This document shows, one piece after another, positions 42,480 through 54,669 of a DNA stretch of 64,000 bases. The stretch lies in the NCBI GenBank assembly GCA_965213865.1, contig OZ243928.1, positions 1,706,945-1,770,944 on the forward strand. Direction: 5' to 3'. Positions within the stretch are counted from its first letter, which is position 1; every line of letters starts with the position of its first letter. Source of the stretch: Arenicellales bacterium. Lineage in GTDB: Bacteria > Pseudomonadota > Gammaproteobacteria > Arenicellales > JAJDZL01. Under the pieces are notes generated by a model. It had not been told where the DNA came from, did not search any database, and saw only the letters and a program-made list of their open reading frames with translations. Made by a program: the position numbers and the translations under genes.

Positions 42480-43328
42480 TCAGGGGAAGCGCACATCGAC
42501 CGTGATATCGCACCATTTGGCATAGGCCGGCGCACCGGCCGCCTCCAGCTCCGGCGTGGGCCAGCTGGGCGGGCCGCAATGCCTGGCAGTCCGAAAGGTG
42601 GCCCCATAGCCTGCCTGATTGGCAACAAAGGCAAAGGCCGGGGGCGGGGTTGGGTTTTTCAAGTCCCAGCAGCGCTGCACATTGGAATCGGCTGCATGAC
42701 ACACCTTGCCCCAGACCCGCACCCGGAAGATGCCGTTGCTCGGGGTCCGCTCCGGGGTGTATGAGCTGTCTTGCTGATTCGGCGTATTCCCGGTGTACTC
42801 GCCAGGCAGGGGGGTTGTGTCACCAGTGCACGCCGGGTACCCTTTATTGGCGGTGAACGTCCTGCCCATGAAGGTCACGGAGCGCGAGCACTTGCGGGTC
42901 GTATAGGTCTGGCAGGCGATGGCGATGGGCCCGCCGCGGGAATAGGTGCCGGCCGGGTTGTGGAATTCGACCCCTCCGCTTACTCCCGCACTGTGGGCGC
43001 AATGGGAACCGGGTCCCACGCCGAAGGTCGTCCTGTCGTGAGTCATTCCGCCCGGACTGTCCAGGGCCTCGATCGTCAGGTTGTTGATCACGCCGCTCAA
43101 GGTCCGACTGTTAACCTGGGGGGCGGGCCAGACCAGATTCTGGTTCAGACGGGTGGCGTAAGTGATGGCGGGATCCGAAACCCGTGAAACTCTGGCCGCC
43201 CGATCTGTCTGTGCCGATGCGGGCAGGGAAAGGGCCGTGCTCAGCAGAATGGCGGCGAAAGCCTTGAGAAAGACGGCGAGGGGGGGGGGTTGCCGCAATT
43301 TTCCTGTCATTTTCTTATCTCTTATCAT
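42480..43328 (-). CDS. Hypothetical Cys-rich secreted protein with a C10 tract in the signal-peptide region (in frame)
   Basis: Leader ...RQPPPLAVFLKAFAAILLSTALSLPASA-Q, 8 Cys in the mature part, extended -10 upstream and terminator downstream. Start at 43328 or 43310. Confidence 0.72.
   Translation of the reverse strand: MIRDKKMTGKLRQPPPLAVFLKAFAAILLSTALSLPASAQTDRAARVSRVSDPAITYATRLNQNLVWPAPQVNSRTLSGVINNLTIEALDSPGGMTHDRTTFGVGPGSHCAHSAGVSGGVEFHNPAGTYSRGGPIAIACQTYTTRKCSRSVTFMGRTFTANKGYPACTGDTTPLPGEYTGNTPNQQDSSYTPERTPSNGIFRVRVWGKVCHAADSNVQRCWDLKNPTPPPAFAFVANQAGYGATFRTARHCGPPSWPTPELEAAGAPAYAKWCDITVDVRFP
43280..43289 (-). repeat. C10 homopolymer (coding strand) in the leader of the secreted protein
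   Basis: Ten consecutive G on the + strand. Confidence 0.95.
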
Positions 43329-43362
43329 TTTCTTATCCTCGAAACAGCATAATGTTGCGGCG

Positions 43363-43371
43363 ATTATACCA
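43363..43371 (-). promoter_or_regulatory. Extended -10 promoter element TGGTATAAT
   Basis: Perfect TGnTATAAT 35 nt upstream of the ATG at 43328. Confidence 0.6.
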
Positions 43372-43450
43372 GTTTCAGCCGGCAAAACGACGGATTTTCA
43401 AGCTGAGCGACTGTCGTTTAGCGAGATGCTTCCGGTTTTTATGTATTTGC

Positions 43451-43473
43451 GGCTTATAATGATGGCTTATAAT
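43451..43473 (+). promoter_or_regulatory. Direct repeat GGCTTATAAT x2 (13-bp period), each containing TATAAT
   Basis: Located in the divergent intergenic region upstream of the autotransporter. Confidence 0.45.
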
Positions 43474-43605
43474 AAGAATAAGTATTTCATTCCATTTCAG
43501 GCAAGTGAAAAGCCTCAGATGCAGGTGACTTCATGGCAGGCAGGCAAGTCGAGCTCGCCTGCTTGGAGAGGCAGGTTCAGCCTATTCATGCAGGAGCAGA
43601 GACCA

Positions 43606-46600
43606 ATGATAGCATTTAAAACTGATTTATCCGCGCGCCAAGGACTTGAGATGCGGGGGGGGGCAGAAGCTATAAACTGAGCAGCAAACTTTGCTGCGCT
43701 GCCATTCTCTGGATTCTGTCGCTTGCCGCTGCTCCGGCGAAGGCCGCTGAGGAATGCGGCGACCTCAACGACCCTGCGAGTTCTCAAACCATCGACTGCA
43801 CGACTGAGAATTACAAGGCGGAAGAAGATGGCAATGTCTTCTATGAGCTGCCGGACAGCTTGACAGATCCGGACTACAGTTTCACCCTGAGCCTGAAATC
43901 CGGCACCCGGATTGTCGGCCAGCGCGACCGGTCCCAGGTTCCCGAAGAGGAACAGAAGGACGATCACGGCCGGCGGGCTGACTCACCATGGGCGATTTAC
44001 GGTGCCGTCTTCGTCGATACCGGATTCGATCACGAAGGCAACATCACGATCCGGTCAGCGGCTGACATCGAGGCGGGCAACCGCACTGGTGTCACAATTG
44101 GCCAAGCAACCATTCGGGCCCGCGGCATCTATGCGCGCCATCAAGGCAGGTCCGGAGACCTCAACATTCATCTTGCCGATGGCACCATTACCAGCACCGG
44201 CCCCGGTGTCCACGCCCATATCGACAGCCAAAAAAGCGGCGAAAACAGCGGCAATTTCAAAGATGCTGAATTCGAGGGGAACATCGACATTGATTTGTCA
44301 CCCGGTGCGACCATCCGAACATCCGGCGACAACGGGGACGGCGTCCAGGCGCACCACCGCGGCCGCGGGAAGATCCGCCTCACCGCGACCGGGAAGGCGG
44401 ATTCTGAAGAGCCCGACATCGGGACCACTGGCAATGATGCCGGCGGGATCTCGGTTGAAATGGGCAATTGGTGGGATGATTTTGCCGATTCAGCGAGAGG
44501 GGACATCGGTATCGATTTGAGGAATTATTTCATCCGCACGACGGGCGACAGGGGAGTGCTCTTCGGTTCGGGCTTGAAGGTTTACAATTACATCTCCGGT
44601 GACATTGACGTTGATGTGACCGGCAGCCGGATCAAGACGCAGGCCCAGCGCGGTATCTATGCGTGGCGGGTGCCAGGTGAACGTGCCGGCGGCAGGATAG
44701 ATATCGATGTCAGGAACTCGGAGATTGCGACGGGGGTCCAGGGAAAGAATGGCAATCATGCCATCATTGCCCAGCACCAGTCGACCGGCACTGGCCTTAT
44801 CGCCATTGATGTTGACAGCAGTGAGATCTCGACGCGGGGCGCAGACTCCCACGCTGTCTACGGCCGGCATTTCGGCGCCGGCGATGTGGTCATCGCCGCG
44901 CGCGACAGCGAGATCTCGACGCAGGATGCCGGGTCGTACGGCATCTACGGTCGCCACCAGTATTTGTCAAACTATAGGTTTTGGGCGAGGTTGCTAGCGC
45001 GCGGGACGCCCGCGGCGAACTATGCGGTAAGAATCGATGTCGATGGCGGCCGCATCTGCGCGGATCGCGATGACCGAGGGACCGAGGACCCCGGCGATGA
45101 TATCTGCCAGGGGACGGGCATTGTGGCCGAGATCGCCGAGAGCGGGCAGAATGACCGGGCTGAGGTGGATCTCGCCGGGGCGGTGGTCCAGGGCAGCACA
45201 GCCGTCGAGTTCAGGGGTGTCAAGGGCGCTCTCCGCCTGACCGACAGCCATCTGGCGGGCGATATCCGGTTTGCCAGGGGCGACTACAATGATGCGCTGC
45301 ATGTAAAGCTGGACCGCACCTCGCGCCGGCTGGCCGGAGACATCGATTTCTCCGGCGGCGAGGATAAGATGACGGTCGACATTGCCCGTGGGCAGCATTT
45401 GGCCTTCGACGGGCCGATCAGCATCAGCGGGCTGGAGTCCCTGACCAAGCGGGGCGACGGCTGGGTGCGCTTCGCTGACAATGTCAACTTCGAGGACGGC
45501 AGCCTGCGGCTGGAGGACGGGCATCTGGTCGTGGCTGGACGGCTGAATCTTGGCAACGGCCGGCTGACCATAGAAGATGCCGGCCGGCTGGTGTTCGAGG
45601 CGGGCCAGGATGTCAGGCCTGACGACAGCAAGCTGTTGTGGTTCGGGCAGCTCCTTGCTGGCGAAGTGCACTTTGCGGACGCGCAGGGCGATCCGGCGGT
45701 GTTTCTGCAGCTGAGCGAGGGACTGGACGAGGCGGCGGCCGATCAGGTGCGGGAGTTTCTGGCTGCGGGCCCATTGGCGCTGATCACCGGCCGTCTGACA
45801 CAGGGAAGCAATGATGATACGGTGATGAGTCTGGCGCTCCGGTCATTATCAGATGGCACGGTCTCGGAAGTCGGAACGGTCAATCCCGCAACCGGCGTCG
45901 CCACCATCACAGAAAACATGAAAGGCCGGATCGGCCGGCTGAAATTGCCGGGGACGATCTCTCTGGCATCGATTCCTTCAAGCGGCGGCACAGCCGGCGG
46001 CGGAAGTGGCAGCGGCTCAGGTGGCAGCGCCGGTTCCGGCTCCAGCGGCGGCATCCTGGGGTTGGGCCTGCTGGCGGTGCTGCTGGCATCCTTCGGCGCG
46101 GATGAGGAGGCGGAGGAGGCGAGCTGGGCCGGCTACGGCATCGGCGCACCCGGGGCGGCTTATGCCGTCGAGCGTGTTGACGGGGGCGACCGGATGTGGA
46201 TGCGCACCGCGCGGCCGATGACCGGGATCACGCAGGCCGGCGTCAGCGGCGCGGCGGCGGGCTTGAGCCTGCACGAGGGCGATCATTTCTACCTGGGCGC
46301 CTCCGCGGCGCCTGCGGTGACCGCCCGGGTCGACTCGCTGAATCTGGCGGCCCGGGGCGCGGTGCACTCGCTGCGCGCCGGCTGGCGCGCCGAGCGCTGG
46401 TTCGCCGGGCTGCGCCTGTCGCAGGGCGACTTCCAGGTGGCGACGTCCGTTGCCAATCCGGCGACCAGCGGCGCTTTGGCGAGCCGCTTCGCGCTGCGCA
46501 GCGCACAGGCACAGCTGCGGGCGGGCCTGCACCTTGATGCGGGGGCGCTGCGATTCACGCCGTCGGCCGCGGTGCAGGCGGGGCGCCTCGCGCACAGCGC

Positions 46601-46991
46601 GCATGTGGCGGAAAGCCCGGCGCTGCGGGCGCGTGTCCCGGCCTTCTCGCAGGACTACACCGGCTGGCAGCTGGGGCTGCGGATGAGCGCGAGCCGGTGG
46701 CTGGATGCGGCCGGCGGCGGACGGTGGCAGCCGCAGCTGCAGTTCCAGACAATCCGCACGACTGCGGCGGGCGGCGCGGTGAGCCTGCGCCAGGCGGATC
46801 GGCTCGGAGCGCTGAGCTTCAATACGCCGGCCGGGATCCGGGCCCTGCCGAAGGCGGTTCACTCGCTGCGCCTGGGCGCCCGGGTGCGTCCGGCCGGCCA
46901 TCGGGGGATTTGGAAGCTCGGCCTCGCCGGCCTGGAGGCGGACGGCGAGGCGCATTATGCGGCGCTGGCAGCCTACCAGCTGCGGTTCTGA
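43606..46991 (+). CDS. Type Va autotransporter, frameshifted at a G9 tract in the signal-peptide region
   Basis: Passenger repeats I.T.G....GI.A.H, amphipathic beta-strands and terminal YQLRF. The frame containing 43860 is open from 43650 and encodes a signal peptide, while the ATG at 43606 (with RBS) is in another frame. Confidence 0.78.
43655..43663 (+). repeat. G9 homopolymer at the 5' end of the autotransporter
   Basis: Read directly from the sequence. Confidence 0.95.
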
Positions 46992-47055: not shown

Positions 47056-47084
47056 AAAGGGGGCGGCAAAGGCCGCCACCTTTT
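47056..47084 (+). terminator. Intrinsic terminator after the autotransporter
   Basis: AAAGGGGGCGGC-AAAG-GCCGCCACCTTTT stem-loop with one mismatch and a T tail. Confidence 0.65.
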
Positions 47085-47271
47085 GCTGGCTCTTGCTGGG
47101 TGCTGGGCTCGTTCCTGCCATGGTGAGATATCAGTTTTATGCGGCGGGGGAGCGGGTCGCCGCGAAGTCTGGCAGACCGGTGTTATGTGCGGCACAAATC
47201 TCAAGTCCACTGAAATTCAAAAACGACAGGCCGCTTGACAGCGTTCGCGTGTTCATCCGGATTTTTTCTGT

Positions 47272-48945: not shown

Positions 48946-49046
48946 GACTGGCCTGGCGCGACTGTGCAGATGCGATCTTGTCGGTCCTGCAATCGCAAGT
49001 CGGCTGCCCGTACTGTTCGCTGAGGTGCTTTGTTTGAGATTTGCCC

Positions 49047-50597
49047 ATGCCCGAGACCAGACGCTTAGGGGGCCGCGCCGCCAGAAAAGCCATTCGAGCC
49101 GCGCCTTTAGCCGAAGAAGATAAAGCCGTTCGGCCGGGCATGCGCGGCGGGCGATTTGCGCCGCTGACTGATGCTGACATCATCGCAGTCAATGATGCGG
49201 TGATGGATGTGCTCGAAAATATCGGCCTGTCACAGGCGATTCCGTCATGCATTGAGCTGGTCACGCAGGCCGGCGGCCAGTACACGCCCGAAGCCAGACT
49301 GACTTTCCCGCGATCTTTGGTTGAGGACACGATTGCCGAAGCCTGTCGGGATTATGTTCTGTGCGGACGCGACCCTCGACACGATTTGGAACTTACCGAC
49401 ACGCGAGTTTATTTCGGCACCGCCGGGGCTGCTGTCCATGTGGTCGATCTTGAGACGCGCAAATACCGCGAGTCCACCCTGAAAGACTTGTACGATATCG
49501 CGAGAATCGTCGATCAGATGGAGCATATTCATTTCTTCCAGCGCCCATTGGTGTGTCGGGATATGGAAATTCCGTATGAAATGGATCTGAACACCTGCTA
49601 TGCATGTATCACCGGCACCTCAAAACATATCGGTTCAAGCTGGGTTTTGCCTGAGCATCTGGACACATCAGTTGAGATGCTGCATATTGTTGCCGGGGGA
49701 GAGAAGCAGTGGCGTGAGCGGCCCTTCGTCAGCTGCTCGTCTTGTTTTGTGGTGCCGCCGCTGCGTTTTGCAGAAGATGCCTGTGCGGTGCTTGAGCAGT
49801 CGGTGCGAGCGGGCATGCCAGTACTGCTGCTGGCGGCCGGACAGGCGGGCGCAACGAGTCCGGCATCACTGGCCGGTGCGGTAGTGCAGGAAACCGCTGA
49901 GACGCTTGCCGGTCTGGTTTATGTCAATGCAATCAAGAAAAAACACCCCGCGATTCTCGGCATTTGGCCGTTTGTCTCAGACTTGCGGACCGGGGCCATG
50001 AGCGGCGGCAGCGGCGAGCAGGCGGTGCTGATGGCCGCCTGCGGTCAGATGGGACGCTATTATGACCTGCCCACTGGCATTGCGGCGGGGATGGCAGATT
50101 CCAAACTGCCTGACTCACAGTCCGGGTTCGAGAAGGGCTATACCACAACTTTAGCCGGACATTCTGGCGCCAACATGGTCTATGAGGCCGCTGGCATGCA
50201 TGCCAGTCTGCTGGGTGTCAGTCTGGAAAGCTTTGTTGTCGACAACGACATGCTCGGCGCTGTCAATCGATCCATTCGCGGCATTGAGATTAATGATCAG
50301 TCGCTGTCCACGGAGGTTATGCGTGACGTTTGTATTGGCGGTCCAAGCCATTTTTTAGGTCATGATCAGACGATGGCCTTGATGCAGAAAGATTATGTTT
50401 ACCCCGATGTCGGCGATCGCACCAGTCCCAAAGAATGGGCGGAGCGCGGCTCAACCGACGTGATACAAAAAGCGCAGCTGCGCGTCGACGAGATCTTATC
50501 GAATCATTTCCCGCGCTACGTCGATGATGCCACTGATGCGCTGCTTCGAGAGCAATTCCCGATTCGGCTGCCTAGAGAGCTGATGTCGCCCGGATGA
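49047..50597 (+). CDS. Trimethylamine methyltransferase (MttB) superfamily, non-pyrrolysine
   Basis: GATSPASLAGAVVQ, SDLRTGAMSGG, DSKLPDSQSGFEK, YEAAG. No in-frame TAG. Confidence 0.87.
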   Translation: MPETRRLGGRAARKAIRAAPLAEEDKAVRPGMRGGRFAPLTDADIIAVNDAVMDVLENIGLSQAIPSCIELVTQAGGQYTPEARLTFPRSLVEDTIAEACRDYVLCGRDPRHDLELTDTRVYFGTAGAAVHVVDLETRKYRESTLKDLYDIARIVDQMEHIHFFQRPLVCRDMEIPYEMDLNTCYACITGTSKHIGSSWVLPEHLDTSVEMLHIVAGGEKQWRERPFVSCSSCFVVPPLRFAEDACAVLEQSVRAGMPVLLLAAGQAGATSPASLAGAVVQETAETLAGLVYVNAIKKKHPAILGIWPFVSDLRTGAMSGGSGEQAVLMAACGQMGRYYDLPTGIAAGMADSKLPDSQSGFEKGYTTTLAGHSGANMVYEAAGMHASLLGVSLESFVVDNDMLGAVNRSIRGIEINDQSLSTEVMRDVCIGGPSHFLGHDQTMALMQKDYVYPDVGDRTSPKEWAERGSTDVIQKAQLRVDEILSNHFPRYVDDATDALLREQFPIRLPRELMSPG

Positions 50598-53918: not shown

Positions 53919-54669
53919 ATGAAATTCAAAAAAGCGTTTACCCCCCCCTTACAAGCTAGCAGTACTCACTGCCGCGCTGGCGGCCCTGACCATGATCCCG
54001 CCGGCGTGGGCACAACAGATGCTGCCGGAAATCAGCATAGATTATGCGGACGGCGTCAGTGAAACTCAGGCCTTTGCCGAAACCATCGTTCAGCCCTGCA
54101 ACAACACCGCCAGGGGCGGCCTGCCGGTCCAGATCCGGGCCAGCCGTCCCGCCAACGGCGTGACGGTCAATACCATGGCTTTCACCGTCTCCGGTTATGA
54201 CCGGCTTCGGGACCATGGCGTGCCCCCCTATGTCGACCCAAGTGCTCAGAATGGAGGACCCGTTGTCTACCGCCCCAGCGGCGCCGCGACCTATACGGGC
54301 AATTCAACGGGATGGTTTCGACTGAACCAGTTTAGCGGCGGCAGGGGAAGTCCCTGCTTCCCGAACGACGTCCTCATCACCGACGACACTGTCATTGAGG
54401 TCGTGCTGATGCCCGGCAATGGCTACACGATCAACCCGGACATGCGGTCGGTTCGGCTCACTGTTGAGGATGACAGCGAAGAGGCATGCGATAACTTAGA
54501 GGAAATTGGCCGAAGAGCTATGTCAAGCAATGCGCCGCTCTTGTACAAGGTGCGGAACGGCAACCTCAACGATACCTGCATCTGTGCAACCGAAGCCCAG
54601 GTGGACAAGTACCGACTGAAACCCGAACTGATGTGTGACGATTCACCCTGGCCAGGGTCAGGCAGCTAA
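53919..54669 (+). CDS. Secreted Calx-beta-like protein, frameshifted at a C8 tract in the signal-peptide region
   Basis: AAAGGAG RBS and ATG at 53919; the h-region YKLAVLTAALAALTMIPPAWA lies in the 53992 frame. VVLMPGNGYTINP...VRLTVEDD resembles the end of a Calx-beta domain; 6 Cys. Confidence 0.68.
53941..53948 (+). repeat. C8 homopolymer in the leader
   Basis: Read directly from the sequence. Confidence 0.95.

What the first reader, a model, noticed from the sequence alone, without database searches (positions are those of the whole stretch)
43591..43860. Hidden signal peptide of the autotransporter, disconnected by one G
The ORF track starts this gene at TTG 43860. Its frame is actually open from 43650 with no canonical start and encodes RSYKLSSKLCCAAILWILSLAAAPAKA-AEECGDLND..., a clear Sec signal. 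The ATG at 43606 (CAGGAG RBS) and the ATG at 43651 are in another frame that stops at 43678-43680. One extra G gives MRGGGRSYKL... The remaining 3.3 kb has no lesions, which argues for a reversible OFF state rather than decay.
Basis: seen in the sequence. Interest (0 to 1): 0.7.

Follow-up and report, generated by a model that had tools for sequence, protein, structure and literature searches.

The report
Phase-variable autotransporter gene, switched off
A surface-protein (autotransporter) gene of an uncultured marine bacterium is cut off from its start codon and export signal by a run of nine G's that is one G short; this is the classic, reversible on/off switch known from pathogens, here caught in the OFF state and next to two more genes with the same kind of switch.

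Summary
ATG 43651 (or ATG 43606, same frame) is followed by a G9 run (43655-43663). That frame stops at 43678-43680. The 1113-codon autotransporter frame is open from 43650 but has no start before TTG 43860. G10 or G7 gives MRGGGRSYKLSSKLCCAAILWILSLAAAPAKA/AEEC..., a Sec signal peptide.

G9 is not an assembly error: contigs from four public runs carry it. The gene is not decaying. It has no indels, population SNPs are 10 synonymous to 6 non-synonymous (P=0.002), and the C-terminus matches Pfam Autotransporter.

Relatives in Arenicellales and Paracoccaceae MAGs carry a homopolymer at the same place (C9, C12, C13, C31, G12). Some are in frame and some are not.

The only other two G/C runs of 8 or more in the window also sit in the first ten codons of signal-peptide genes:
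- C10 at 43280-43289, in the divergent neighbour, ON.
- C8 at 53941-53948, OFF, and C8 versus C9 between runs of one sample.

Best reading is slipped-strand phase variation, with OFF as the majority state. This is a known mechanism (as in Neisseria NalP) in a new lineage. Length variation at this particular tract was not seen, because only contigs were available.

The parts
43451..43473 (+). Two tandem copies of GGCTTATAAT (-10-like TATAAT at 43455-60 and 43468-73); candidate promoter of the autotransporter gene
   Evidence: Direct repeat D2 and the sequence. The strict sigma-70 scan found no full promoter, so this is inferred only.
43517..43576 (+). 10-nt direct repeats (AGATGCAGGT / AGAGGCAGGT) flanking a 50-nt segment of the 5' leader. 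The segment holds a hairpin (43537-43565) and is missing in a sub-population.
   Evidence: Joint 43520->43571 in all four runs, at 16.7-100 depth against 26.6-113 for the full form. Repeats D4 and I1.
43606..43608 (+). Alternative upstream ATG, in the same frame as ATG 43651, with AGGAG at 43592-43596
   Evidence: It is not conserved in the related contig of run X5, which diverges upstream of 43646.
43641..43653 (+). Shine-Dalgarno-like AAGGA (43641-45) and the likely start codon ATG 43651-43653
   Evidence: A related gene in run X5 is identical over 43646-43682 and has GGAGGA just before it.
43655..43663 (+). G9 homopolymer tract: the switch. G10 or G7 is ON; G8 or G9 is OFF.
   Evidence: G9 was confirmed in contigs of runs X1-X4.
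43651..43680 (+). OFF-state mini-ORF MRGGAEAIN* (24 aa if started at 43606)
43665..43745 (+). Rest of the signal peptide in the autotransporter frame (RSYKLSSKLCCAAILWILSLAAAPAKA); predicted cleavage after A-K-A, between 43745 and 43746
   Evidence: A-x-A|A-[DEN]-E-C-G is conserved in orthologues.
43746..46100 (+). Passenger domain (no Pfam match; predicted all-beta, beta-helix-like), followed by a Gly/Ser-rich linker and a hydrophobic segment
   Evidence: AlphaFold2 pLDDT is mostly 80-95 over residues 30-760. Top Foldseek hits are beta-helix proteins (tailspikes, Ag43, Hap, AlgG), none significant. No Pfam hits.
46101..46991 (+). C-terminal autotransporter beta-barrel domain and stop codon; ends ...YQLRF*
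   Evidence: PF03797 E 4.6e-8, 33.6 bits against a cut-off of 26. 9 synonymous to 1 conservative SNP in this part.
47062..47087 (+). Terminator-like hairpin GGCGGCAAAGGCCGCC plus a T-rich tail, 70 nt after the stop
42480..43310 (-). Divergent neighbour: a 276-aa Cys-rich secreted protein of unknown function with its own switch, a C10 run (43280-43289 on the + strand as G10) in codons 8-10. In frame (ON) as assembled.
   Evidence: Family of 31 proteins with poly-Pro or truncated N-termini. 84% aa identity to an ORF next to the autotransporter homologue in a Paracoccaceae MAG.
53919..54669 (+). Third gene of the same design: a 249-aa secreted protein with a C8 run at 53941-53948 in codons 8-10. 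OFF as assembled; ON at C7 or C10.
   Evidence: C9 in runs X1 and X3, C8 in X2, contigs broken at the tract in X4.

Best explanation
This is a homopolymer contingency locus: translational phase variation of a classical (type Va) autotransporter.

How it works. The gene starts at ATG 43651 (less likely 43606). Four bases later comes a poly-G run, placed between the start codon and the hydrophobic core of the Sec signal peptide. Slipped-strand mispairing during replication adds or removes G's.
- With G10 or G7 the ribosome reads through into a 32-residue signal peptide, a roughly 750-residue beta-helix-like passenger and a C-terminal beta-barrel, and the protein is displayed on the cell surface.
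- With G9 (the state in the window and in the majority of cells of four sequenced samples) or G8, translation ends after 7-9 codons and the 3.3-kb body is not made.

Shown: the anatomy; the frame arithmetic; that G9 is real; that the gene is intact and under purifying selection; that orthologues carry tracts of different lengths in both ON and OFF frames; and that a neighbouring tract varies within a sample.

Inferred: that this particular tract switches at an appreciable rate; that the ON protein is exported and acts at the surface, probably in adhesion or host interaction; and that OFF is selected or neutral in the sampled habitat.
For: Anatomy and frame logic.

Signal-peptide features appear only in the G10/G7 frame.

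Autotransporter identity: PF03797 above the cut-off. The passenger is predicted all-beta with beta-helix top hits.

G9 stands in the contigs of four runs from two samples, at the same depth as the flanking genome.

The gene is maintained: no indels anywhere, and 10 synonymous to 6 non-synonymous SNPs against 25.5% synonymous expected, binomial P=0.002.

Orthologues:
- L005, Arenicellales: C12, ON.
- L002: C31, ON.
- L003/L007, Paracoccaceae: G12, ON.
- L001 and L012, Arenicellales: C13, OFF.
- L010 and L011: CCA+C9, OFF.
- L006: no tract, intact.

L010 and L011 encode the identical protein but differ G10 versus G11 in a second tract 155 bp upstream. L001 and L012 differ G11 versus G9 there.

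All three G/C runs of 8 or more in the window sit at the 5' end of signal-peptide genes. The third is C8 or C9 depending on the run, within one sample.

The neighbour's family shows many poly-Pro (ON) and truncated (OFF) N-termini. OFF alleles were confirmed at DNA level in L013 (C9) and L014 (C25).

Precedent: nalP, an autotransporter with a genic C(9-13) tract, in PMC5953494; badE in Bartonella, PMC11466379.
Against: - No G8 or G10 variant of this tract was seen in any of the four runs. However, only Logan contigs were available, and these drop minority variants.
- In run X5 the matching contig merely ends at the first G of the tract, which is ambiguous.
- All OFF alleles of the autotransporter subfamily (window, the X5 relative, L001/L012, L010/L011) are off by the same amount: each needs +1 nt. 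This could hint at leaky decoding rather than a pure switch. The lineages are not independent, and L014 in the neighbour's family is off the other way.
- There are no expression data. The library type of the runs is not on record.
- In the wider family (105 full-length representatives), poly-P or poly-G runs in the first 45 residues are not more frequent than elsewhere in the proteins: 10/105 against 11%. The device is therefore a trait of the close subfamily, not of all relatives.
Confidence: 0.75

Rival explanations
1. G9 is the working state. The protein is made at a set low level by -1 ribosomal frameshifting on G_GGG_GGG, or by RNA-polymerase slippage on the G run. Either gives exactly the G10 product (MRGGGRSYKL...).
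For: In the ATG frame the run forms a perfect X_XXY_YYZ heptamer. All OFF alleles of the autotransporter subfamily, and L013 in the neighbour's family, need +1 nt, i.e. a -1 shift. A diverged relative in run X5 keeps ATG-C-G9 and the next 19 nt identical while the following sequence is 16% different.
Against: The 77 nt after the tract fold no better than shuffles (z = 0.21), and the only hairpin starts 18 nt downstream, too far for a classical stimulator. Orthologues L005, L002 and L003 are simply in frame. Tract lengths range from 9 to 31 and change base (G or C), which does not fit a conserved recoding signal. L014 is off in the other direction. From general knowledge, slippage by RNA polymerase is best documented on A/T runs.
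Confidence: 0.12
2. It is a young pseudogene. The frameshift is the first lesion of irreversible decay, not a switch.
For: The majority state is OFF in all four runs. Four of five SNPs in the passenger are non-synonymous.
Against: The 1113 codons are open, with chance P = 7e-14. There are no indels in the population. The barrel part shows 9 synonymous changes to 1 conservative change. The single lesion lies exactly in a hypermutable tract that orthologues also carry, in both ON and OFF frames.
Confidence: 0.07
3. It is a homopolymer error of the assembly; the true genome has G10.
For: Relatives come from long-read metagenome assemblies, where homopolymer length is the main error type (contig names).
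Against: Contigs built independently from four runs (depth 45-200) all have G9 with no gap. The same data do report a one-base difference at the C8 tract, so such differences are detectable.
Confidence: 0.03
4. In the G9 state translation starts at a non-canonical codon in the autotransporter frame (CTG 43677-79), giving MSSKLCCAAILWIL...
For: CTG 43677 overlaps the mini-ORF stop (CTGA). The G run 13 nt upstream could act as a weak Shine-Dalgarno sequence.
Against: From general knowledge, CTG is a very poor bacterial start. The spacing is long, and orthologues show no equivalent codon.
Confidence: 0.02

Closest known systems
NalP (NMB1969) of Neisseria meningitidis, and other phase-variable Neisseria autotransporters
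   Same: A classical autotransporter whose expression is switched by a poly-C/G run of 9-13 nt inside the 5' coding region (PMC5953494, table read). ON and OFF alleles are found among isolates.
   Different: No detectable sequence relationship in the passenger (no Pfam or NCBIfam hit). The host is an uncultured marine gammaproteobacterium, not a human pathogen. Here the tract sits before the hydrophobic core of the signal peptide.
badE trimeric autotransporter adhesin of Bartonella krasnovii
   Same: Mononucleotide repeats in the first part of the reading frame of an adhesin gene toggle it during host passage. Other secreted or lipoprotein genes in the same genomes carry G or C tracts (PMC11466379).
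   Different: badE is type Vc (trimeric) with an A9 repeat, and its switching was shown experimentally. Here the gene is type Va with G9, and only comparative evidence is available.
Intragenic G-tract switch of sortase-dependent pili in Bifidobacterium breve
   Same: An ON/OFF replication-slippage switch in a surface-structure gene of a non-pathogenic host-associated bacterium (PMC9187656; title and abstract seen).
   Different: A Gram-positive pilus gene, and the switch was measured by maximum-depth sequencing, which could not be done here.
Rescue of frameshifted genes by transcriptional slippage at poly(A) tracts in insect endosymbionts (from memory: Tamas et al. 2008)
   Same: Symbiont genes that look frameshifted at a homopolymer but still yield protein.
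   Different: Those tracts are poly(A), the rescue is at RNA level, and it is tied to genome decay. Here the tract is G/C, orthologues include in-frame alleles, and the DNA length varies.

Membership tests
Classical (type Va) autotransporter | C-terminal beta-barrel translocator domain (Pfam PF03797) ending in an aromatic residue | tested here: met
   The last 296 aa score 33.6 bits, E 4.6e-8, against a cut-off of 26. The hit was missed when the whole protein was scanned. The protein ends YQLRF. The AlphaFold2 model of this part is unreliable, with pLDDT below 50.
Classical (type Va) autotransporter | N-terminal Sec signal peptide | tested here: met
   Present only when the tract is G10 or G7: charge +4, hydrophobic core 2.81, AKA|A. 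SignalP was not available, so this rests on simple computed features and on conservation of AxA|A[DEN]ECG in orthologues.
Classical (type Va) autotransporter | Beta-helical passenger domain | tested here: inconclusive
   The model is all-beta with high confidence over residues 30-760. Top PDB matches are beta-helices, including Ag43, Hap, UpaB, IcsA and EspC, but none reaches E<=1e-3.
Homopolymer (simple-sequence-repeat) contingency locus, translational phase variation | Mononucleotide run of about 7 or more within the 5' coding region whose length sets the reading frame | tested here: met
   G9 at codons 2-5. Lengths 7 and 10 give 1112 and 1113 aa; all others give 10 aa or fewer.
Homopolymer (simple-sequence-repeat) contingency locus, translational phase variation | Tract length differs among cells or strains while the flanks are conserved | tested here: inconclusive
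   At this tract, G9 was found in all four runs, but only contigs were available. In orthologues the coding tract is C13 or CCA+C9, and the upstream tract is G9, G10 or G11 among 97%-identical alleles, two of which encode the identical protein. In the same genome, C8 versus C9 at 53941 within one sample.
Homopolymer (simple-sequence-repeat) contingency locus, translational phase variation | Both ON and OFF alleles occur and the body of the gene stays intact | tested here: met
   ON: L005, L002, L003. OFF: window, L001, L012, L010, L011. All have full-length downstream ORFs. SNP pattern is 10 synonymous to 6 non-synonymous, P=0.002.
Homopolymer (simple-sequence-repeat) contingency locus, translational phase variation | Measured reversible switching of expression | not testable with these tools
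   Needs raw or UMI reads, cultures or reporters.
Programmed -1 ribosomal frameshift site | Slippery heptamer X_XXY_YYZ in the zero frame | tested here: met
   G_GGG_GGG within CGG GGG GGG GCA.
Programmed -1 ribosomal frameshift site | Stimulatory RNA structure 5-9 nt downstream, and conservation of the out-of-frame arrangement | tested here: not met
   The downstream fold has z = 0.21 against shuffles. The hairpin at 43681-43697 lies 18 nt away. Three orthologues are in frame.

The most novel reading that the evidence does not exclude
The autotransporter switch is one instance of a portable 5' module: a start codon, a few codons (often M-x-x-F-T, i.e. TTYA), then a poly-C or poly-G run, then a signal peptide. 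At least three unrelated secreted-protein families carry it. It occurs in several co-resident genomes of different classes (Arenicellales-like Gammaproteobacteria and Paracoccaceae) within the same metagenomes, and one family is 84% identical in protein across classes. On this reading, uncultured marine and probably host-associated bacteria run a community-wide set of phase-variable surface genes that is exchanged horizontally. So far that strategy has been documented mainly in pathogens.
Probability: 0.4. Interest if true: 0.6.

Novelty: new member of a known kind. Interest (0 to 1): 0.4.

Why it matters
The mechanism is textbook, so the finding does not change how phase variation is understood. 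It matters in three practical ways.

1. Annotation. Gene callers start this gene at an internal TTG and its relatives at internal ATGs ('MAALCA...'). Public protein sets therefore hold signal-less, mis-started versions of a whole subfamily, and of the neighbour's family.

2. Biology. The finding indicates that uncultured Arenicellales-like and Paracoccaceae bacteria from marine metagenomes diversify their surface by stochastic switching of several secreted proteins. This bears on how such bacteria persist with hosts or phages.

3. Testability. Three tracts within 11 kb of each other, one already polymorphic within a sample, make a direct target for read-level population studies.

Tried and rejected
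- Whole-protein Pfam and NCBIfam scans found nothing. Only the isolated C-terminus hit PF03797. Passenger halves, gene 2 and gene 3 have no Pfam match.
- The first genome-contig scan, with the single protein, found nothing. The alignment-based scan found six loci.
- Both metagenome-contig scans found nothing: the protein alignment and the DNA pattern GATGC-N6-14-CAGAAGCTATAAACTGAG.
- The look-up of encoding contigs could not place the window's own proteins P0001 and P0039, so the window's sample and taxon are not directly known. The Arenicellales-like assignment rests on synteny: aspS lies next to the autotransporter in L005, with 57-62% aa identity.
- Strict promoter scans of the intergenic region were empty.
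- The sequence search of the barrel domain against solved structures gave nothing useful. Foldseek gave only non-significant beta-helix hits.
- I looked for a frameshift-stimulating RNA structure and found none.
- I tested whether poly-P or poly-G N-termini are enriched across the wider family of 105 full-length representatives. They are not: 9.5% against 11% background. I therefore restrict the claim to the close subfamily.
- No RNA-labelled runs or raw-read runs were available. A read-level tract-length distribution and transcript slippage could not be measured.
- Literature searches for homopolymer phase variation in sponge or marine symbionts returned nothing relevant.
Full report
**What is in the sequence.** Reading 43300-44100 shows ...AAGGACTTGAG ATG C GGGGGGGGG CAGAAGCTATAAACTGAGC.... 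The ATG is at 43651-43653 and the run is G9 at 43655-43663.

In the ATG frame the product is MRGGAEAIN, stopping at TGA 43678-80. ATG 43606, preceded by AGGAG, is in the same frame and gives a 24-aa product.

The long ORF listed mechanically as TTG 43860..46991 is open upstream to 43650, just after TGA 43647-49. It has no canonical start in between. In that stretch it reads DAGGGRSYKLSSKLCCAAILWILSLAAAPAKAAEECGDLND.

I varied the tract in silico. G7 and G10 give 1112 and 1113 aa, and every other length from 6 to 12 gives 10 aa or fewer.

The restored N-terminus has a +4 n-region, a strongly hydrophobic core and an A-K-A|A site. The N-terminus from TTG 43860 has none of these.

**What the gene is.** Whole-protein scans against Pfam and NCBIfam were empty. 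The last 296 residues on their own match the Autotransporter beta-domain PF03797 above the curated threshold (33.6 against 26 bits), and the protein ends in ...YQLRF.

An AlphaFold2 model built on eight homologues predicts an all-beta passenger with high confidence over residues 30-760. The barrel part is unreliable. Its best PDB matches are right-handed beta-helices: phage tailspikes, Ag43, Hap, AlgG, UpaB, IcsA and EspC. None is statistically significant.

A terminator-like hairpin follows the stop by 70 nt.

I read this as a monocistronic classical autotransporter whose passenger function is unknown.

**Is G9 real, and is the gene decaying?** Five public runs hold this sequence, but only as Logan contigs.

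In runs X1-X4 (two samples) one contig crosses the tract with no gap, so the tract is G9. Its depth equals that of the flanking genome.

Across 3.4 kb no run shows an indel. The 16 SNP sites split 10 synonymous to 6 non-synonymous, where 25.5% synonymous is expected (binomial P=0.002). In the barrel part the split is 9 synonymous to 1 conservative change; in the passenger it is 1 synonymous to 4 non-synonymous.

The chance of 1113 open codons at this composition is 7e-14. The gene is being maintained.

**Relatives.** Only 13 homologues were found among 5.8 billion proteins. The exhaustive representative search found 297.

Four close relatives (50-52% identity) are called from an internal Met as 'MAALCA..AQA|ADECGPL'. 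That is a signal peptide with its front missing. Others start MRFTPPPPPPPPPPPLKSF... or contain ...HWGGGAHK....

Their DNA explains this. Each carries a homopolymer between the start codon and the signal-peptide core:

| Locus | Source | Coding tract | State |
|---|---|---|---|
| L001 (=L004) | Arenicellales MAG OZ243980.1 | C13 | OFF |
| L012 | second strain in the same metagenome | C13 | OFF |
| L010, L011 | other metagenome assemblies | CCA+C9 | OFF |
| L005 | Arenicellales JAPYNL01 | C12 | ON |
| L002 | not named (1.68-Mb contig) | C31 | ON |
| L003 (=L007) | Paracoccaceae OZ241384.1 | G12 | ON |
| L006 | Paracoccaceae OZ244066.1 | none | intact |

The four L001-type alleles are 97% identical over 400 bp. 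They also carry a second tract 155 bp upstream, next to TACAAT, that is G11, G9, G10 and G11 respectively. L010 and L011 encode exactly the same protein and still differ there. That is the signature of hypermutable tracts.

Synteny suggests the window comes from a related gammaproteobacterium. aspS lies beside the autotransporter in L005 as in the window, at 57-62% aa identity. A macB/ftsX/AttH cluster lies near it in L002. This assignment is inferred.

**The neighbourhood.** The window has only three G/C runs of 8 or more, and each lies in codons 2-10 of a gene that then encodes a signal peptide.

The divergent neighbour runs from ATG 43310 to stop 42480 on the minus strand. It has C10 (43280-43289) and is in frame: MTGKLRQPPPLAVFLKAFAAILLSTALSLPASA|Q....

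A third gene (53919-54669) has C8 and is OFF; C7 or C10 would give a 249-aa secreted protein. At this third tract the contigs read C9 in X1 and X3 and C8 in X2, and they break at the tract in X4. X1, X2 and X4 come from one sample. This is direct evidence of within-population length variation in this genome.

At the neighbour's tract, contigs span it only in X3.

The neighbour belongs to a family of 31 unannotated proteins from MAG chromosomes. At least nine start with in-frame poly-Pro (MRFTPPPPLFLKAF..., MTHFTPPPPPFLKAF...) and about twelve are N-terminally truncated. DNA of two truncated members confirms out-of-frame tracts: C9 in L013 and C25 in L014.

One member, in a Paracoccaceae MAG, is 84% identical in protein and lies directly upstream of that genome's autotransporter homologue.

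**Mechanism and rivals.** The best-supported reading is slipped-strand phase variation, as in nalP of Neisseria (genic C9-13; PMC5953494) and badE of Bartonella (PMC11466379). The sampled majority is OFF.

The main rival is leaky decoding. G_GGG_GGG is a perfect -1 slippery heptamer, and a -1 shift gives the same protein as G10. All OFF alleles in the autotransporter subfamily need the same +1 nt. A diverged relative in run X5 keeps ATG-C-G9 and the next 19 nt identical.

Several points argue against it:
- The downstream RNA folds no better than shuffles.
- The nearest hairpin is 18 nt away.
- Three orthologues are plainly in frame.
- Tract base and length are not conserved.
- L014 is off in the other direction.

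Pseudogenisation, assembly error and CTG initiation are each unlikely, for the reasons given above.

**Limits.** I could not see minority tract lengths at 43655-43663, because contigs drop them. The library type of the runs is not on record. The window's own record could not be retrieved. The passenger's function is unknown.

In the wider family, poly-P or poly-G N-termini are not enriched. The device is a feature of the close subfamily and of the neighbour's family, not of every relative.

**Verdict.** This is a known kind of switch in a new lineage and gene family. The added points are that several such switches cluster here, and that public annotations of these families start at the wrong codon.

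Noticed in passing
window 42480-43310 (- strand), tract 43280-43289: The divergent neighbour is a 276-aa Cys-rich secreted protein with a C10 run in codons 8-10, in frame. Its family (31 proteins, no Pfam) shows many poly-Pro (ON) and truncated (OFF) N-termini. One member in a Paracoccaceae MAG is 84% identical and sits next to that genome's autotransporter homologue, which suggests exchange between bacterial classes.
   Followed up: partly
window 53919-54669, tract 53941-53948: A third switch-bearing gene (249-aa secreted protein, no Pfam), OFF at C8. Contigs show C9 in X1 and X3 and C8 in X2, and break at the tract in X4. X1, X2 and X4 are one sample.
   Followed up: partly
window 43517-43576: A 50-nt indel polymorphism in the 5' leader of the autotransporter gene, between 10-nt direct repeats. 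It removes a hairpin (43537-43565). The deleted form stands at about 30-48% of the depth in all four runs. It may be a second, slower layer of expression variation.
   Followed up: partly
window 43174-43272 and 43355-43405: Metagenome depth is 5-20 times the genome depth over the signal-peptide part of gene 2 and over its promoter region (TGGTATAAT on the minus strand). Several different continuations appear, including G12-13 runs. This looks like a multi-copy 5' module shared by paralogues or by co-resident genomes.
   Followed up: partly
L001 5765-5775, L012 1672-1680, L010 3769-3778, L011 3768-3778: In the Arenicellales orthologues a second tract (G9, G10 or G11), next to TACAAT and about 155 bp upstream of the coding C-tract, varies among 97%-identical alleles. 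The tract may lie in the promoter, which would give two-level control. No sigma-70 match was found by the strict scan.
   Followed up: partly
window 43302-43337: An 18-nt tandem duplication (TCCTGTCATTTTCTTATC x2). On the minus strand it duplicates the GATAAGAAAATGA start region of gene 2, giving two in-frame ATGs (43328 and 43310).
   Followed up: no
window 49041-50597 (Rfam hit 50091-50190): An MttB-family methyltransferase gene (Pfam MTTB, E 9e-115) contains an Rfam PYLIS_3 match (48 bits), yet the ORF is uninterrupted. It is probably a non-pyrrolysine MttB homologue, with the RNA hit reflecting coding-sequence similarity.
   Followed up: no
window about 45990-46100 (protein residues about 775-815): Between passenger and barrel lies a Gly/Ser-rich stretch followed by a hydrophobic segment (GGILGLGLLAVLLASFG). 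It is conserved in the gammaproteobacterial relatives but replaced in the Paracoccaceae ones. This is unusual for a type Va linker.
   Followed up: no
proteins P0002-P0004, P0006, P0014, P0016, P0019, P0021, P0022, P0030 and others: Public gene calls for both families often start at internal Met codons because the true start is out of frame. The deposited proteins therefore lack signal peptides and would be mis-sorted as cytoplasmic.
   Followed up: partly
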